A DNA stretch of 64,000 nucleotides from Symbiobacterium sp. (GCA_020725405.1 DYFB01000015.1:32157-96156), one strand, 5' to 3'; numbered from the stretch's first letter, positions 29,152-32,449 are shown. Numbers and translations are program-made. The notes: generated by a model from the sequence alone, not told the origin.

Positions 29152-29760
29152 CTAGAACTCCCGGATGAGGCCGATGACCTTACCCAGTATCCGTACGTCT
29201 CGGGTGACGATGGGCTCGAGGGCCGGGTTCTCGGGTTGGAGCCGGATGCCCCGCTTGTCGCGATAGAAGCGCTTGACCGTCGCCTCGTCCTCAAGGAGAG
29301 CGACGACGATGTCCCCGTCGTCAGCCGACGGCTGGGGGCGGACGATGAGAAGGTCGCCGTCGTGGATGCCGGCGCCAATCATGCTGTCCCCGCGTACCGA
29401 TAGGAGGAACGTCCCCTCGCCACCGGCGAGGTCGCGGGGGAGGGGGATGTAGTCCTCGATGTTCTCGACGGCGAGGATGGGCGTGCCGGCCGTGACCCGT
29501 CCGACGAGAGGCACGTTCACCAGGCGGTGTCGCTGGACCGCCCGCCCCTCGTCGAGGACCTCGATGGCCCGGGGCTTGGTCGGGTCGCGCCGGAGATAGC
29601 CCTTCTCCTCGAGGCGGGCGAGGTGCCCGTGGACCGTGGAACTCGAACTGAGACCCACAGCCTCACCGATCTCCCGTACTGAGGGCGGGTAGCCGCGCTC
29701 CCGGGTCTGCCTCTTGATGAACTCTAGGATCTGCTTCTGTCTGCTTGTAAGCGAGGGCAC
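29152..29760 (-). CDS. lexA: SOS repressor LexA
   Basis: The winged-helix N-terminus [34 protein letters not shown] and the S24 peptidase region (AG site, GDSM, K) are present. GTG 29760 has GAAGGAGGTG 8 nt upstream. The longer ORF to 29784 would begin 2 nt after its own -10 box. Confidence 0.9.
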
Positions 29761-29787
29761 GGGCGACCCACCTCCTTCACTCACTGA

Positions 29788-29827
29788 TTATACGGGCGCG
29801 AGGGGCAAAAGGCAAACAGTTGTTCGC
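29788..29827 (-). promoter_or_regulatory. lexA promoter: -10 TATAAT (minus strand, 29788-29793) with the imperfect Cheo box CAAACAGTTGTTCG (29814-29827) over the -35 region
   Basis: Read directly. This is the classic autoregulatory arrangement. Confidence 0.5.
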
Positions 29828-29835
29828 TTTTTCCC

Positions 29836-29885
29836 TTGACTCGGGGCGGAGGCATGAACTAGAATCGGTGGCGAACACATGTTCG
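29836..29885 (+). promoter_or_regulatory. Divergent LexA-controlled promoter: TTGACT -18 bp- TAGAAT with a perfect Cheo box CGAACACATGTTCG (29872-29885) at the predicted transcription start
   Basis: Firmicute LexA consensus is CGAACRNRYGTTCG, and this site matches every position. The promoter points away from lexA toward the 29981 ORF. Confidence 0.65.
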
Positions 29886-29980
29886 CCGGCGGACGCCGAC
29901 GCCGACCCAGAAGGATTTAAGGCGAGTCCTTCGGTCCCAACCCGGAGGTCCGGCCCTACCCGGCGAGGGAGGAACCCCAC

Positions 29981-30154
29981 ATGCGGATTGCACTTGGTGA
30001 CGATCAACGCTACAAGTACGTGATCACGGCTCGCGCCGGACGGGGGCGGTTCGAGGGGGTCCCGTGCCGGCGCGTGTCGTCGCCGAGGCCCCGGGATAGG
30101 GGAGAGAGCCGGACCGAGGAGCCTCCGTCTCCGGCCGCGGCTCCGAGCGACTAA
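29981..30154 (+). CDS. Hypothetical 57-aa Arg-rich protein downstream of the LexA-repressed promoter. It is a candidate lineage-specific SOS-induced protein with a YneA/SosA/DivS-like genomic position.
   Basis: ATG 29981 has GGGAGGAA 6 nt upstream. Product is MRIALGDDQRYKYVITARAGRGRFEGVPCRRVSSPRPRDRGESRTEEPPSPAAAPSD. No TM segment is seen. Third-position GC is lower than in neighbouring genes, so coding status is uncertain. Confidence 0.3.
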   Translation: MRIALGDDQRYKYVITARAGRGRFEGVPCRRVSSPRPRDRGESRTEEPPSPAAAPSD

Positions 30155-30173
30155 CCGGCCGGCATTCACCAGG

Positions 30174-30187
30174 GAACAGGTGTTCGG
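30174..30187. promoter_or_regulatory. Third Cheo box GGAACAGGTGTTCGG, immediately after the small ORF at the head of a 480-bp ORF-poor region
   Basis: The GAAC-N4-GTTC core is perfect with R-N-R-Y spacer rules met. Confidence 0.55.
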
Positions 30188-30632
30188 TGCAGAGGGAGGG
30201 AGAGCCGAGCGGGCCCTGGCGGTGCGCTCCCACCCGTCTGCGGAAGGGCCAATCGGGGTTGGCGGAGACGGCGCAAACGGGTCGACCTTGGCCCGTGTCG
30301 ACCGGCGTCGCCGGAGGAGGAAACCCGGCGGACTGCCGGCGGGGTGCGGGCCCGACACCGATACCGCCGCTGAACGGCGGCCCCCCAGGGGGCCGGACCC
30401 TCGTCACTCAAGCCCGGCCCCGGCCCCGGCCGGTGTCGCACCGACCCCACCGCTGCCGCCCGAATCGCGGGGCGGATGGGTCCGGGTTCGGGCGATGCCG
30501 AAGAGGAATCGGACCGTCAGCGGCCCGGTTTCGGTTGGGTAATCCGCTAGTCTTATGCGTCCGATAATATACGTTATGTGAGCTCGTCCGAAGGACGAAC
30601 CGGCACCTGTGCCGCCGGCGGCTCTCGCAAGG

Positions 30633-31466
30633 CTAGGACCAAAGCAAACGGGCCGCGGTCTTCAGAAGAAGGTCCTCTTCAACCGTCAGCCCTTCTGACA
30701 GTCTCGCGGCGGCTACCACGGGGACCCAGGCCGCAATCTCCGCCGCGTCGAGCCCCGAGACCCGCAGGTACCGCCTTAGGTACCGGCTGTGGACACCGCC
30801 GAGCACTCCCGCCGCGAGAAGCCTCGCCGACCGACCGGGCACGTGGCGGGGGGCGCCGCGCAGGAGGACCGTGGTCCTGGCCACGTCCAGGGCCGGGAGG
30901 CCGCGCCTCGCGTCTGCCCAATCGATGATCACCGGCCCCGCGGGCCCGAGGATGATGTTCCAGGGATGGAAATCGCCGTGGCAGATCCGGTCTCCGTCGG
31001 GAAGGCCGGCGAGGGCCTCCAGGGCGGCCGCGCGGACACAATCGGGCAGCCCGGCCGCCTTATCGAGGCCGCGGCGGAGCCGTTCCTTGACCGAGGGCCA
31101 TTCCTCGGGGGCCGGGCAGGCGTTCACCACAGCGTGGAGTTCGGCGAGGAGCCCGGCCATGCGGCGGGCCTCCCAGGGGCGGGCGAGAAGACGCTGGCCC
31201 ATGCTCGGGCCGGGTATCCGCTCGAAGACAATTCCGGGCCGCCCCTGGACCGCTATGGTTCCGAAGCAAGCCGGCACGGGCAGGCCGGCTTCGCGGGCCG
31301 TCCGGGTTGCCGCCGCCTCTCTTTCGGCACCCGCGGGGTGGGTGCCCTCCCAGAAGAGCTTGAGGACCCGGTCGGGTCCCCAGGCGTGGATGTCGGCCCT
31401 GGCCCCGCGGCCGACTATCGGCCCGGGCGCCCGCGCCCGTGGTTCGGACGGCTCCAGCGTCTCCAT
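30633..31466 (-). CDS. Aminoglycoside/choline-kinase-like phosphotransferase (APH family)
   Basis: The catalytic loop HGDFHPWNIIL and DWADA match APH HGDxxxxN...D motifs. ATG 31466. Confidence 0.75.
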   Translation of the reverse strand: METLEPSEPRARAPGPIVGRGARADIHAWGPDRVLKLFWEGTHPAGAEREAAATRTAREAGLPVPACFGTIAVQGRPGIVFERIPGPSMGQRLLARPWEARRMAGLLAELHAVVNACPAPEEWPSVKERLRRGLDKAAGLPDCVRAAALEALAGLPDGDRICHGDFHPWNIILGPAGPVIIDWADARRGLPALDVARTTVLLRGAPRHVPGRSARLLAAGVLGGVHSRYLRRYLRVSGLDAAEIAAWVPVVAAARLSEGLTVEEDLLLKTAARLLWS

Positions 31467-31589
31467 CTACCTCCCACGCTTCGCTTCTTGTCCACCCCGA
31501 GTTTGCTTCCCCGAGCGGCCGGGCCGTTCCTGCAGGCAGTTCCGGTGTTCGCGCACAGTCCCGATGTTCGCGCAGGGAGGGATACCAAC

Positions 31590-31667
31590 GACCGCGCGAC
31601 CGCGCCCGTTTGGCCGACCGCGCGACCGCGCCCGTTCGGCCGACCGCGCGACCGCGCCCGTTCGGCT
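31590..31667. repeat. Tandem direct repeat, 26 bp x3 (gaccgcgcgaccgcgcccgtt[t/c]ggcc), in the divergent promoter region
   Basis: Three head-to-tail copies are read directly; the third has 1-2 substitutions. A nearby shorter repeat gttcgcgca x2 is at ~31545-31575. Confidence 0.8.
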
Positions 31668-32284: not shown

Positions 32285-32449
32285 CACCGGCGGCCGGGCC
32301 GGTTAGGCTGGAGCCGCGGTCGGCCGACCGGCGGGAGCCAGAGACCGGAGGGGGGTGATGGCGTGAGAGAGACCAGCGCCGTCATCCCGGGGGAAGTGGC
32401 CCCGGGGTAGGCGGCACGGCCGGGGGGACGGGCCCGTCGGGCCCGTTCC

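What the first reader, a model, noticed from the sequence alone, without database searches (positions are those of the whole stretch)
29760..30640. LexA-controlled divergent unit: perfect Cheo box on a strong outward promoter, a 57-aa Arg-rich ORF, a third Cheo box, and ~480 bp of ORF-poor structured DNA
A near-consensus sigma-A promoter (TTGACT-18-TAGAAT) fires away from lexA, with a perfect CGAACACATGTTCG Cheo box at its predicted +1. It feeds a tiny ORF (29981-30154) that has an excellent RBS. This is the genomic position occupied by lineage-specific SOS cell-division inhibitors (YneA, SosA, DivS, ChiZ) in other Gram-positives. Unlike those, the product has no transmembrane segment, and its codon third positions are less GC-rich than neighbouring genes. 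A third Cheo box sits right at the ORF stop, at the head of ~480 bp with no convincing ORF but many short GC hairpins (ccgc-tgaa-cggcgg, ccccc-ag-ggggg, cccgg x3). That stretch ends in an AT-rich patch and two hairpins next to the convergent phosphotransferase gene. Possible contents are an SOS-induced sRNA, a type I toxin-antitoxin, or an unrecognised small-protein gene.
Basis: partly seen in the sequence, partly recalled or inferred. Interest (0 to 1): 0.6.

Follow-up and report, generated by a model that had tools for sequence, protein, structure and literature searches.

The report
SOS-controlled small protein gene beside dif
Next to the DNA-damage repressor gene lexA, this uncultured high-GC Bacillota genome has a LexA-guarded promoter driving a real but undescribed 57-residue soluble protein, followed by a third LexA site, about 370 bp of fast-evolving filler and the chromosome's dimer-resolution site (dif); there is no hidden RNA or toxin gene.

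Summary
The sequence features are real. TTGACT-18-TAGAAT (29836-29865) has a perfect Cheo box at its +1 (29872-29885). A GGGAGG ribosome-binding site precedes the 57-aa ORF (29981-30154). A third, one-mismatch Cheo box lies at 30173-30186.

Comparative data upgrade the ORF to a gene. All nine lineages examined, including this window, keep the promoter, operator and ORF divergent from lexA. About ten 50%-identity clusters share a basic ~33-residue N-terminal motif, with dN/dS below 1 in most pairs. The protein has no transmembrane segment and no database or structural match. More distant relatives carry YneA-type TM+LysM genes in the same slot.

The "structured" 370-480 bp is not special. It folds no better than shuffles, cannot be aligned between lineages, has no codon periodicity and drifts fastest within the species.

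The "AT-rich patch" is a 28-bp XerCD-type dif site (30557-30584). It is conserved while its flanks are scrambled and lies near the GC-skew maximum. Box 3, followed by a purine-rich tract, is conserved ahead of dif. In two lineages a Xer-like recombinase gene follows it instead.

Best reading: an SOS-induced soluble small protein, a new variant of the lexA-adjacent effector genes, sitting at the replication terminus. Its function is inferred, not shown.

The parts
29152..29760 (-). lexA. The true start is GTG at 29760, giving 202 aa, not the 210-aa ORF starting at 29784.
   Evidence: The exact 202-aa product is on record on 6 contigs, with LexA_DNA_bind and Peptidase_S24 domains. The 210-aa version is not on record. 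AAGGAGGTG lies 8 nt upstream of the GTG.
29787..29815 (-). lexA promoter: TTGCCT, 17-nt spacer, TATAAT.
   Evidence: It matches 10 of 12 consensus positions in the promoter scan.
29813..29826 (.). Cheo box 1 (CAAACAGTTGTTCG), the lexA autoregulatory operator, overlapping the -35 of the lexA promoter.
   Evidence: A CAAAC-N4-GTTCG box occupies the same place upstream of lexA in every smORF lineage examined and in several more distant lexA loci.
29836..29865 (+). Outward sigma-A-type promoter: TTGACT, 18-nt spacer, TAGAAT.
   Evidence: It matches 10 of 12 consensus positions. A TTGAC-type -35 and an A/T-rich -10 hexamer (TAGAAT in most, TAGGAT, TAATAT or TACAAT in others) recur in L008, L009, L062, L068, L118, L120, L124 and L126.
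29872..29885 (.). Cheo box 2 (CGAACACATGTTCG, perfect), at the predicted transcription start.
   Evidence: A perfect CGAAC-N4-GTTCG occupies the same position in all eight related lineages.
29886..29980 (+). 5' leader carrying the GGGAGG ribosome-binding site at 29967-29972.
   Evidence: In relatives the leader varies from 21 to about 95 nt and is not conserved.
29981..30154 (+). Small-protein gene, 57 aa. It has a conserved basic N-terminal ~33 residues (M[RK]IxLxDxGRYKYAQTxRxGRxGR[LIF]VxVP) and a variable, poorly predicted tail.
   Evidence: An exhaustive HMMER search found 9 real small homologues of 57-72 aa (alignment). dN/dS is below 1 in all but one measurable pair, mostly 0.14-0.6, with saturated dS and Arg codons switching between CGN and AGR. 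There is no TM segment and no Pfam, NCBIfam, PHROG, PADLOC or PDB match.
30173..30186 (.). Cheo box 3 (GGAACAGGTGTTCG, one mismatch), a distal LexA operator after the last gene of the unit.
   Evidence: It is conserved in nine lineages: perfect in L008, L009, L062, L068, L118 and L126, and one mismatch in this window, L120 and L124. It always follows the smORF, or the smORF-GNAT pair, and always precedes either the dif spacer or a Xer-like gene. It carries no SNP within the species.
30187..30206 (+). Purine-rich G tract directly after box 3 (GTGCAGAGGGAGGGAGAGCC). Its function is unexplained.
   Evidence: In nine lineages, 64-92% of the first 25 nt after box 3 are purines. The window background is 50 +/- 11%, and only 0.5% of 25-mers reach 80%.
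30187..30556 (.). Non-coding, fast-evolving spacer between box 3 and dif.
   Evidence: Folding z-scores are -0.50 and -0.62. It cannot be aligned across lineages. GC1/2/3 is flat. Within-species divergence is 1.6-3.2%. There is no Rfam family at gathering.
30557..30584 (.). XerCD-type dif site: GCGTCCGATAA / TATACG / TTATGTGAGCT (11-6-11).
   Evidence: The dif-core pattern occurs once in the window, with 0 expected. This is the best match in the window to B. subtilis dif, 20 of 28 against a next best of 17. A 24-nt block is 100% identical to L009 inside unalignable flanks. Orthologous sites exist in L062, L068, L124 and L126 and in more distant lexA loci, including L077 at 25 of 28 to B. subtilis dif. 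The cumulative G-C maximum is at 32432. The reference dif strings were verified in PMC3025954.
30633..31466 (-). Convergent APH-family phosphotransferase gene, the right boundary of the locus.
   Evidence: Pfam APH, E = 1.9e-22. The same neighbour is present in L008, L062, L068 and L126.

Best explanation
This is the lexA locus of an uncultured high-GC Bacillota bacterium, and it lies in the replication-terminus region.

Three LexA operators organise it. Box 1 overlaps the lexA promoter and provides autoregulation. Box 2 sits on the transcription start of a strong outward promoter. Box 3 lies just past the end of that transcription unit.

Inferred regulation: in undamaged cells LexA shuts the outward promoter. 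After RecA-stimulated LexA self-cleavage the promoter fires and produces a 57-residue, basic, soluble protein. That protein belongs to a previously undescribed, lineage-restricted family.

Most likely role, by position only and not shown: the family has replaced the membrane-anchored YneA-type checkpoint gene at this slot. It would act as the SOS effector that delays division or segregation, through a cytoplasmic target rather than through the septal cell-wall machinery.

Downstream there is no gene and no structured RNA. About 370 bp of neutrally drifting spacer ends in the chromosome's XerCD dif site.

Box 3 and its purine tract are under selection. They probably gate what passes from the SOS unit into the dif side of the locus. 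In two sister lineages what lies there is a Xer-like recombinase gene.

Shown: the anatomy, the conservation, the protein-level selection, the absence of a TM segment, the absence of RNA-structure signal, and the dif identity by sequence and context. Inferred: LexA binding and damage induction, the function of the protein, and the role of box 3.
For: Operators and promoters:
- The three boxes and both promoters are located.
- The same architecture is present in L008, L009 (with near-identical loci L063 and L064), L062, L068, L118, L120, L124 and L126, whose LexA (where measured) is 81-87% identical to the window's.

The small protein:
- An exhaustive profile search of 1.84 billion representatives finds only 57-72-aa proteins with the same N-terminal motif.
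- All nine genomic contexts examined are divergent from lexA and sit behind box 2.
- dN/dS is below 1 in all but one measurable pair, with saturated dS and synonymous Arg/Gly/Tyr codon turnover at invariant residues.
- There is no TM segment: KD19 is at most 0.84, against 2.1-2.4 for the TM+LysM proteins in the same slot in L010, L011, L015 and L066.
- The literature states that Gram-positive SOS division inhibitors are co-localised with lexA and share a single TM segment (PMC6851548).

The dif site:
-, with the reference dif sequences in PMC3025954.
- Genes are mainly on the + strand at 1-29 kb and on the - strand at 43-64 kb. The cumulative GC skew peaks about 1.9 kb from the site.
Against: - No expression, LexA-binding or phenotype data exist; the organism is known only from metagenomes.
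- The ORF's GC3 (0.77) is below that of its neighbours, and its C-terminal half shows no coding signature.
- The AlphaFold model is poor, with pLDDT 57 and only one beta-hairpin, so there is no structural clue to a target.
- The family fails the defining structural features of YneA, SosA, ChiZ and DivS (TM segment, extracellular domain). The division-inhibitor role therefore rests on position alone.
- In four lineages a GNAT acetyltransferase gene follows the small ORF, overlapping its stop codon in at least two. In two lineages a Xer-like recombinase follows instead. These partners point to other possible roles.
- No promoter is recognisable at box 3, so its target is unknown.
- The terminus assignment rests on a weak skew in only 64 kb (left +0.024, right -0.004).
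Confidence: 0.6

Rival explanations
1. The small protein is an accessory factor of terminus recombination rather than a division inhibitor. It would be a small basic DNA- or recombinase-binding protein, analogous to an excisionase (recombination directionality factor) or to the XerCD activator XafT. It would be made during SOS to modulate Xer recombination at the adjacent dif site, or the activity of the LexA-gated Xer-like recombinase where that gene is present.
For: - The gene always lies 0.6-1.5 kb upstream of dif (window, L009, L062, L068, L124, L126) or directly upstream of a 308-aa Xer-family recombinase (L008, L120).
- The N-terminal domain carries a net charge of +4 to +7.
- Small basic proteins encoded next to tyrosine-recombinase genes are typical of directionality factors (own knowledge).
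- Box 3 and the purine tract link the unit to the dif side of the locus in every lineage.
Against: - lexA-dif adjacency also occurs in lineages that have a YneA-type gene or no small ORF at all (L016, L018, L072, L077). Proximity to dif can therefore be inherited synteny.
- A GNAT gene is inserted between the small ORF and box 3 in four lineages.
- There is no homology to any Xis or XafT family.
Confidence: 0.15
2. The small ORF is the partner of the GNAT acetyltransferase that follows it in sister lineages, either an antitoxin-like or a regulatory subunit. In this window it would be an orphan left behind after the GNAT gene was lost.
For: - In L124 and L126 the GNAT gene overlaps the small ORF's stop codon by 14 nt.
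- L062 and L118 also carry a GNAT gene between the small ORF and box 3.
- A small upstream partner followed by a GNAT is the layout of GNAT/RHH toxin-antitoxin pairs (own knowledge).
Against: - Five lineages, including this window, keep the small ORF, its promoter and box 2 without any GNAT gene, and the ORF is still under purifying selection.
- There is no RHH or DUF1778 signature.
- Neither protein has a PADLOC hit.
- The GNAT proteins are 196-205 aa and match only generic Acetyltransf_1.
Confidence: 0.1
3. The 28-bp site is not the chromosomal dif. It is the attachment site of an integrated or decayed mobile element, either one exploiting Xer or one with its own integrase. The variable spacer would be the remnant of that element.
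For: - The spacer differs completely between lineages and varies from 227 to 490 nt.
- L008 and L120 carry a tyrosine recombinase with its own palindromic site in the same slot.
- A short motif resembling the dif left arm (CGTCCTAGG...) recurs in three spacers.
Against: - The site matches experimentally defined chromosomal dif sites, with B. subtilis at 20 of 28 and an intermediate in L077 at 25 of 28.
- The dif-core pattern occurs once in the 64 kb.
- It sits near the skew maximum and the gene-strand switch.
- It is conserved next to lexA across lineages whose LexA is only 63-70% identical.
- The region has no phage or plasmid similarity.
- No second dif-like copy flanks the spacer.
Confidence: 0.08
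4. The ~370-480 bp after the ORF encodes an SOS-induced sRNA or a type I toxin-antitoxin.
For: - Box 3 is conserved and is followed by a conserved purine-rich tract that could be the 5' end of a transcript.
- There are weak sub-threshold Rfam hits: gut-2 at 22 bits against a gathering score of 39.8, and a tmRNA fragment at 16 bits against 84.
Against: - There is no Rfam family at gathering, and ARAGORN finds no tmRNA.
- Folding energy equals that of shuffles on both strands.
- Neither sequence nor peptide is conserved across nine lineages.
- Within-species divergence is the highest of the larger segments.
- There is no recognisable promoter at box 3.
- No conserved hydrophobic mini-ORF exists.
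Confidence: 0.05

Closest known systems
Gram-positive SOS cell-division inhibitors encoded next to lexA (YneA of B. subtilis and Listeria, SosA of S. aureus, ChiZ/Rv2719c of M. tuberculosis, DivS of C. glutamicum)
   Same: [quoted passage not shown]
- The protein is small and lineage-specific (PMC6851548).
- More distant relatives of this organism carry true TM+LysM YneA-type genes in the identical slot.
   Different: - It has no transmembrane segment, no LysM domain and no extracellular part.
- Profile comparison shows no similarity to the YneA-like neighbours (hhalign probability 0.6%).
- It would have to act from the cytoplasm.
Cytoplasmic division inhibitors SulA (E. coli, SOS-induced) and MciZ (B. 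subtilis 40-aa FtsZ-capping peptide)
   Same: This is a functional analogy only: a soluble protein that could act on FtsZ. SulA is LexA-controlled, and MciZ is a comparably tiny basic peptide (own knowledge).
   Different: - There is no sequence or structural relationship.
- sulA is not lexA-adjacent, and mciZ is sporulation-controlled.
- No evidence here points to FtsZ.
XerCD/dif chromosome dimer resolution site
   Same: - It has the 28-bp 11-6-11 architecture with inner ATAA / TTATGT.
- It matches B. subtilis dif at 20 of 28, F. alni dif at 18 of 28 and E. coli dif at 17 of 28.
- The dif-core pattern occurs once in the window, the site lies near the cumulative GC-skew maximum, and it is conserved while its flanks diverge.
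   Different: - It lies only about 400 bp from a conserved LexA operator and about 800 bp from lexA itself.
- To my knowledge no functional link between LexA and dif has been described.
Single-recombinase Xer modules with a linked site (XerS/difSL of streptococci, XerH/difH of epsilon-proteobacteria)
   Same: This applies only to sister lineages L008 and L120. There a Xer-family recombinase gene is immediately followed by a conserved 9-6-9 palindrome-like site, at the locus where the other lineages have dif. The gene-plus-site linkage is as described in PMC1914069.
   Different: - The module is absent from this window.
- The recombinase scores below the XerC, XerD and XerS equivalog cut-offs.
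- Here the site lies downstream of the gene, and the gene is preceded by a Cheo box.
LexA-controlled tyrosine recombinases (integron integrases)
   Same: A LexA operator lies ahead of a tyrosine-recombinase gene in L008 and L120. SOS control of integron integrase is documented (PMC3108266, listed).
   Different: - The match to the integron-integrase model is weak, 93 bits against a cut-off of 265.
- There are no cassettes.
- The gene is not present in this window.

Membership tests
Gram-positive lexA-adjacent SOS cell-division inhibitors (YneA/SosA/ChiZ/DivS) | The gene is divergently transcribed from lexA. | tested here: met
   lexA is at 29152-29760 on the - strand and the smORF at 29981-30154 on the + strand. 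The same layout holds in all nine contexts examined.
Gram-positive lexA-adjacent SOS cell-division inhibitors (YneA/SosA/ChiZ/DivS) | A LexA operator lies in the promoter (SOS control). | tested here: met
   At the sequence level only. A perfect Cheo box sits at the predicted +1 and is conserved in eight related lineages. LexA binding and induction were not tested.
Gram-positive lexA-adjacent SOS cell-division inhibitors (YneA/SosA/ChiZ/DivS) | The protein has a single membrane-spanning segment. | tested here: not met
   The maximum 19-residue Kyte-Doolittle mean is -0.18 in the window and at most 0.84 across the family. YneA-like proteins of relatives score 2.1-2.4.
Gram-positive lexA-adjacent SOS cell-division inhibitors (YneA/SosA/ChiZ/DivS) | The protein has an extracellular C-terminal part, usually a LysM domain. 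| tested here: not met
   There is no Pfam hit. The tail is variable and modelled only at low confidence. The YneA-like genes of L010, L011, L015 and L066 do hit LysM.
Gram-positive lexA-adjacent SOS cell-division inhibitors (YneA/SosA/ChiZ/DivS) | Expression blocks cell division. | not testable with these tools
   This requires overexpression and microscopy.
XerCD-type dif site | A 28-bp site made of two 11-bp imperfect inverted arms around a 6-bp centre, with conserved inner ATAA / TTATGT. | tested here: met
   GCGTCCGATAA-TATACG-TTATGTGAGCT at 30557-30584. The pattern ATAATNTANNTTATGT occurs once, with 0 expected.
XerCD-type dif site | Sequence similarity to experimentally defined dif sites. 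| tested here: met
   It matches B. subtilis dif at 20 of 28, the best in the window against a next best of 17. The background mean is 5.5, sd 2.1. The related locus L077 matches at 25 of 28. The reference strings are in PMC3025954.
XerCD-type dif site | The site occurs once per chromosome. | tested here: inconclusive
   The dif-core pattern occurs once in the 64-kb window. The whole genome is not available.
XerCD-type dif site | The site is located at the replication terminus, where GC skew and gene strand switch. | tested here: inconclusive
   The cumulative G-C maximum is at 32432, 1.9 kb away. Skew is +0.024 to the left and -0.004 to the right. Genes are mostly on the + strand at 1-29 kb and on the - strand at 43-64 kb. 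This is supportive, but the skew is weak and the window is short.
XerCD-type dif site | The site is conserved across relatives while its flanks diverge. | tested here: met
   A 24-nt block is identical to L009 within unalignable flanks. Orthologous sites exist in L062, L068, L124 and L126.
XerCD-type dif site | The site is recombined by XerC/XerD. | not testable with these tools
   No Xer gene lies in the window: tblastn with the L008 recombinase gives only E > 5. This needs an experiment.
LexA operator of Bacillota (Cheo box, CGAAC-N4-GTTCG) | The site matches the consensus palindrome. | tested here: met
   Box 2 is perfect. Boxes 1 and 3 each have one mismatch.
LexA operator of Bacillota (Cheo box, CGAAC-N4-GTTCG) | The site is bound by LexA. 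| not testable with these tools
   This needs EMSA, footprinting or ChIP. Positional conservation in nine lineages is indirect support.
Structured regulatory RNA (sRNA) in 30187-30556 | The RNA is more stable than composition predicts, or it matches a known family. | tested here: not met
   Folding z-scores are -0.50 and -0.62. There is no Rfam family at gathering and no tRNA or tmRNA.
Structured regulatory RNA (sRNA) in 30187-30556 | Sequence or structure is conserved across relatives. | tested here: not met
   MAFFT and blastn align only box 3 and dif, so there is no basis for a covariation test.
Type I toxin-antitoxin | A small hydrophobic toxin ORF is conserved in relatives, with an overlapping antisense RNA. 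| tested here: not met
   The smORF family is hydrophilic. tblastx between spacers finds no conserved peptide. No antisense promoter was found.
GNAT/RHH-type toxin-antitoxin (small ORF as antitoxin) | An RHH/DUF1778 antitoxin domain is present and a GNAT toxin gene lies immediately downstream. | tested here: not met
   There is no Pfam or PADLOC hit. No GNAT gene is present in this window. GNAT genes occur only in L062, L118, L124 and L126.

The most novel reading that the evidence does not exclude
The locus is an SOS-to-terminus coupling module. LexA would directly gate events at the chromosome dimer-resolution site through the conserved box 3 and a dif-oriented, KOPS-like purine tract about 400 bp from dif. 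The small basic protein would be a damage-induced modulator of the Xer/FtsK machinery. It would hold back or license dimer resolution and terminus segregation while recombinational repair is under way. In sister lineages the same slot carries a LexA-gated single Xer-like recombinase with its own site, so different lineages would achieve SOS control of dimer resolution with different parts.
Probability: 0.12. Interest if true: 0.85.

Novelty: new variant of a known kind. Interest (0 to 1): 0.55.

Why it matters
- Every characterised Gram-positive SOS division inhibitor is a membrane-anchored protein encoded beside lexA. A conserved, soluble, 57-72-residue protein in that slot would be a new way of linking DNA damage to the cell cycle. 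It is small enough for direct biochemical testing.
- lexA, its SOS effector gene and a dedicated LexA operator sit within 0.2-3.3 kb of dif in many high-GC Bacillota lineages. Two lineages put a LexA-gated Xer-like recombinase there instead.
- This makes a simple question testable: is chromosome dimer resolution, which is needed more after recombinational repair, under SOS control in these bacteria?
- The work also removes a false lead. The "structured" 480 bp is GC-rich filler.

Tried and rejected
- **Rfam on the whole window:** no family at gathering. The permissive scan gave only sub-threshold hits, gut-2 at 22 bits and a tmRNA fragment at 16 bits. ARAGORN found no tRNA or tmRNA.
- **RNA folding of 30187-30555, both strands:** not different from shuffles. 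The sRNA reading was dropped.
- **Alignment of the box 3-to-dif segments of five lineages, plus blastn and tblastx among nine spacers:** only box 3, dif and a 19-nt motif in three lineages are shared. No covariance model was built because nothing aligns.
- **Long ORFs in the spacer (120 and 126 aa on +; 94, 127 and 193 aa on -):** flat GC1/2/3 and no conservation. Rejected as genes.
- **Spacer as a decayed recombinase gene:** tblastn of the L008 recombinase against the window gave nothing below E = 5.
- **Word-indexed protein searches with the ORF and with a four-sequence profile:** these returned only the sequences already found. The exhaustive HMMER search was needed to reach the wider family.
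- **AlphaFold2 with an 11-sequence alignment:** pLDDT 57, too poor for a fold search.
- **Pfam, NCBIfam, PHROGs, PADLOC and a PDB profile search:** no hits.
- **hhalign against the YneA-like proteins:** no relation.
- **First lexA look-up with the 210-aa ORF:** failed. The real start is the GTG at 29760.
- **KOPS (GGGNAGGG) and SRS (GAGAAGGG) polarity:** at most a weak bias toward dif (GGGNAGGG 19 toward, 10 away; the others near even). The most polar word, GGGGGAG (28 to 3), contains the Shine-Dalgarno core. It is therefore confounded with gene orientation.
- **Phage and plasmid collections:** no match.

Full report
**1. What is in the sequence**

The window is 69% GC. lexA lies on the minus strand. 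The longest ORF (29152-29784) is not on record. The 202-aa product starting at the GTG at 29760 occurs exactly on six public contigs, with LexA_DNA_bind and Peptidase_S24 domains. Two of those contigs belong to MAG assemblies GCA_020725165.1 and GCA_040754035.1. Those contigs are 98-100% identical to the window over this region, so they are the same species.

The promoter scan finds two sigma-70-type sites in 29600-30800, against 0.1 expected:
- the lexA promoter, TTGCCT-17-TATAAT, on the minus strand

Three Cheo-type boxes lie within 375 bp:
- CAAACAGTTGTTCG at 29813
- the perfect CGAACACATGTTCG at 29872
- GGAACAGGTGTTCG at 30173

Window-wide, seven sites with at most one mismatch is not significant (2.9 expected). 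The case for the boxes rests on clustering and conservation. The 57-aa ORF (29981-30154) has GGGAGG eight nt upstream of its ATG.

**2. The small ORF is a real gene and founds a small family**

Searching with LexA fetched related loci from genomes and metagenomes. In lineages whose LexA is 81-87% identical, the region upstream of lexA repeats the architecture. These are L008, L009 (with L063 and L064), L062 and L068. Each has box 1, a TTGAC-type -35 with an A/T-rich -10 (mostly TAGAAT), a perfect box 2, a ribosome-binding site and an ORF beginning MRIxLxD..RYKY.

Word-indexed searches found only these sequences. An exhaustive HMMER search of 1.84 billion representatives found ten hits at E < 0.001. 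Nine are 57-72-aa proteins with the same N-terminal motif, and one is a spurious repeat protein. The contexts of the more distant members (L118, L120, L124, L126) are again divergent from lexA behind box 2.

Over the first 33 codons synonymous sites are saturated, while dN/dS is below 1 in all but one measurable pair and mostly 0.14-0.6. Invariant Arg, Gly and Tyr residues are written with different codons, for example CGG, CGA, AGA and AGG. That is selection on a protein, not on DNA or RNA.

The rest of the protein is a variable tail that AlphaFold models only at low confidence. The overall pLDDT is 57, with a single beta-hairpin at residues 16-27. The family has:
- no TM segment (KD19 at most 0.84)
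- an N-terminal net charge of +4 to +7
- no Pfam, NCBIfam, PHROG, PADLOC or PDB match

**3. Position**

In relatives with 66-72% LexA identity (L010, L011, L015, L066, L018), the gene divergent from lexA encodes a protein with one TM segment (KD19 2.1-2.4) and, in the four tested against Pfam, a LysM domain. That is the YneA type. The literature states that Gram-positive SOS division inhibitors share this synteny and a single TM segment (PMC6851548). The small-ORF family is unrelated to them (hhalign probability 0.6%). It therefore occupies the slot but fails the family's structural definition.

**4. The 370-480 bp "structured" stretch is filler**
- It has no Rfam family at gathering, and no tRNA or tmRNA.
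- Folding energy equals that of dinucleotide shuffles on both strands (z = -0.50 and -0.62).
- All long frames have flat GC1/2/3.
- Across five lineages nothing aligns except box 3 and the AT-rich site.
- blastn and tblastx among nine spacers give only marginal, inconsistent hits plus one 19-nt motif in three lineages.
- Within the species it differs by 1.6-3.2%, against 0.5-0.7% in lexA.
- Its length varies from 227 to 490 nt.

**5. The AT-rich patch is dif**

GCGTCCGATAA-TATACG-TTATGTGAGCT (30557-30584) has the 11-6-11 layout of XerCD sites. The core pattern occurs once in the window, with none expected. It is the best match in the window to B. subtilis dif, at 20 of 28 against a next best of 17. 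It also matches F. alni dif at 18 of 28 and E. coli dif at 17 of 28. The reference strings were verified in PMC3025954.

A 24-nt block is identical to L009 inside otherwise unalignable DNA. Orthologous sites follow box 3 in L062, L068, L124 and L126. Strains of the same species have TTATGTTAGCT, closer still to E. coli's XerD arm.

dif-like sites also lie 0.2-3.3 kb on the divergent side of lexA in lineages with only 63-70% LexA identity (L016, L017, L018, L070/L072, L077). L077's ACGTCCGATAATATATATTATGTAAACT matches B. subtilis dif at 25 of 28.

The wider window fits a terminus location. Genes are mostly on the + strand up to 29 kb and on the - strand from 43 kb. The cumulative G-C curve peaks at 32432. 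This is supportive but weak, because the window is only 64 kb.

**6. Box 3**

Box 3 is conserved in nine lineages. It is perfect in six, and it carries no SNP within the species. It always lies after the last gene of the unit, which is either the small ORF or a GNAT gene that follows it in L062, L118, L124 and L126. It is always followed by a purine-rich G tract, with 64-92% purines against a background of 50 +/- 11%.

What follows falls into two alternatives:
- a spacer plus dif (window, L009, L062, L068, L124, L126)
- a 308-aa Xer-family recombinase gene, in L008 and L120. The two are 70% identical to each other and score below the XerC/XerD equivalog cut-offs. The gene is followed by a conserved 9-6-9 palindrome-like site.

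No promoter is recognisable at box 3. No intrinsic terminator follows the small ORF on the + strand. I infer that box 3 is a distal operator gating passage from the SOS unit into the dif or recombinase side. Its real role is unexplained.

**7. Mechanism and rivals**

The best-supported model is an SOS-repressed promoter that produces a soluble small effector which has replaced YneA in this clade. The division- or segregation-delay role is inferred from position only.

Rivals considered:
- a Xer/dif accessory factor, supported by linkage to dif and the recombinase and by the basic charge
- a partner of the GNAT
- an attachment site of a mobile element rather than chromosomal dif

**8. Novelty**

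The operators, the promoter logic and dif are known kinds. The small protein family has no match in any protein-family or structure library searched, and it departs from the defining features of the lexA-adjacent inhibitors. I did not find the tight lexA-box 3-dif linkage, or the LexA-gated Xer-like alternative, described in the papers retrieved. The literature search was limited to the open-access library.

Noticed in passing
L008 (revcomp of the region upstream of lexA, positions 487-1700) and L120:1260-2360: In two sister lineages the spacer and dif are replaced. Box 3 is followed by a 308-aa Xer-family tyrosine recombinase and then a conserved ~35-nt site (GACGCCAAA-TGCCTG-TTTTGCGTC type). 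This resembles single-recombinase XerS/difSL or XerH/difH modules, but behind a LexA box.
   Followed up: partly
L016, L017, L018, L070, L072, L077 (0.2-3.3 kb upstream of lexA): dif-like 28-mers lie next to lexA in more distant high-GC Bacillota lineages. They match B. subtilis or E. coli dif at 21-25 of 28. In L018 the site is directly after a YneA-like gene, and in L016 it is about 45 nt from the lexA operator. lexA-dif adjacency therefore seems old and widespread.
   Followed up: partly
L124:3697-4287, L126:833-1450, L062, L118: A 196-205-aa GNAT acetyltransferase gene follows the small ORF in four lineages, overlapping its stop codon by 14 nt in L124 and L126. It is absent from this window.
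   Followed up: partly
window 30579/30580; loci L003 and L007: The 12.6-kb contig SRR28264343_1463, 100% identical to the window over the shared stretch, ends inside the dif site, at the first strain-variable base (G/T at 30580). SNP density is highest just right of dif, at 8.3% in 30585-30632. This is probably an assembly bubble caused by strain variation.
   Followed up: partly
window 31537-31666: Tandem repeats lie upstream of the APH gene: a 26-nt unit CGACCGCGCGACCGCGCCCGTTCGGC x3 (31589-31666) and a 19-nt unit x2 (31537-31574) that contains GTTCG half-sites.
   Followed up: no
spacers of L068, L118, L126 (also TCCTAGG in L009): A short shared motif, CGTCCTAGGGC[CT]TCCTAG, lies about 110-190 nt before dif. 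It resembles the dif left arm (ACGTCC...) and could be a degenerate half-site or a remnant of an element integrated at dif.
   Followed up: no
whole window, split at 30557-30584: GGGGGAG(G) is strongly polar: 28 copies point toward the dif site and 3 away (L+ 15, L- 1, R+ 2, R- 13). It contains the Shine-Dalgarno core, so it is confounded with gene orientation. GGGNAGGG gives 19 toward and 10 away.
   Followed up: partly
L009, about 1.2 kb beyond dif (positions 2000-2320 of the reverse-complemented upstream region): A CRISPR-like array with the repeat CTTTCAGTCCCCTATTCGTCGGGATGAGGGTTGCGAC.
   Followed up: no
L067, L069, L071; also L010, L019, L022, L023, L079, L081, L085: Xer-like tyrosine recombinase genes, 27-33% identical to the L008 enzyme, lie within 1-3 kb of lexA in several other Clostridia-type loci. 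In L067, L069 and L071 the gene is directly divergent from lexA.
   Followed up: no
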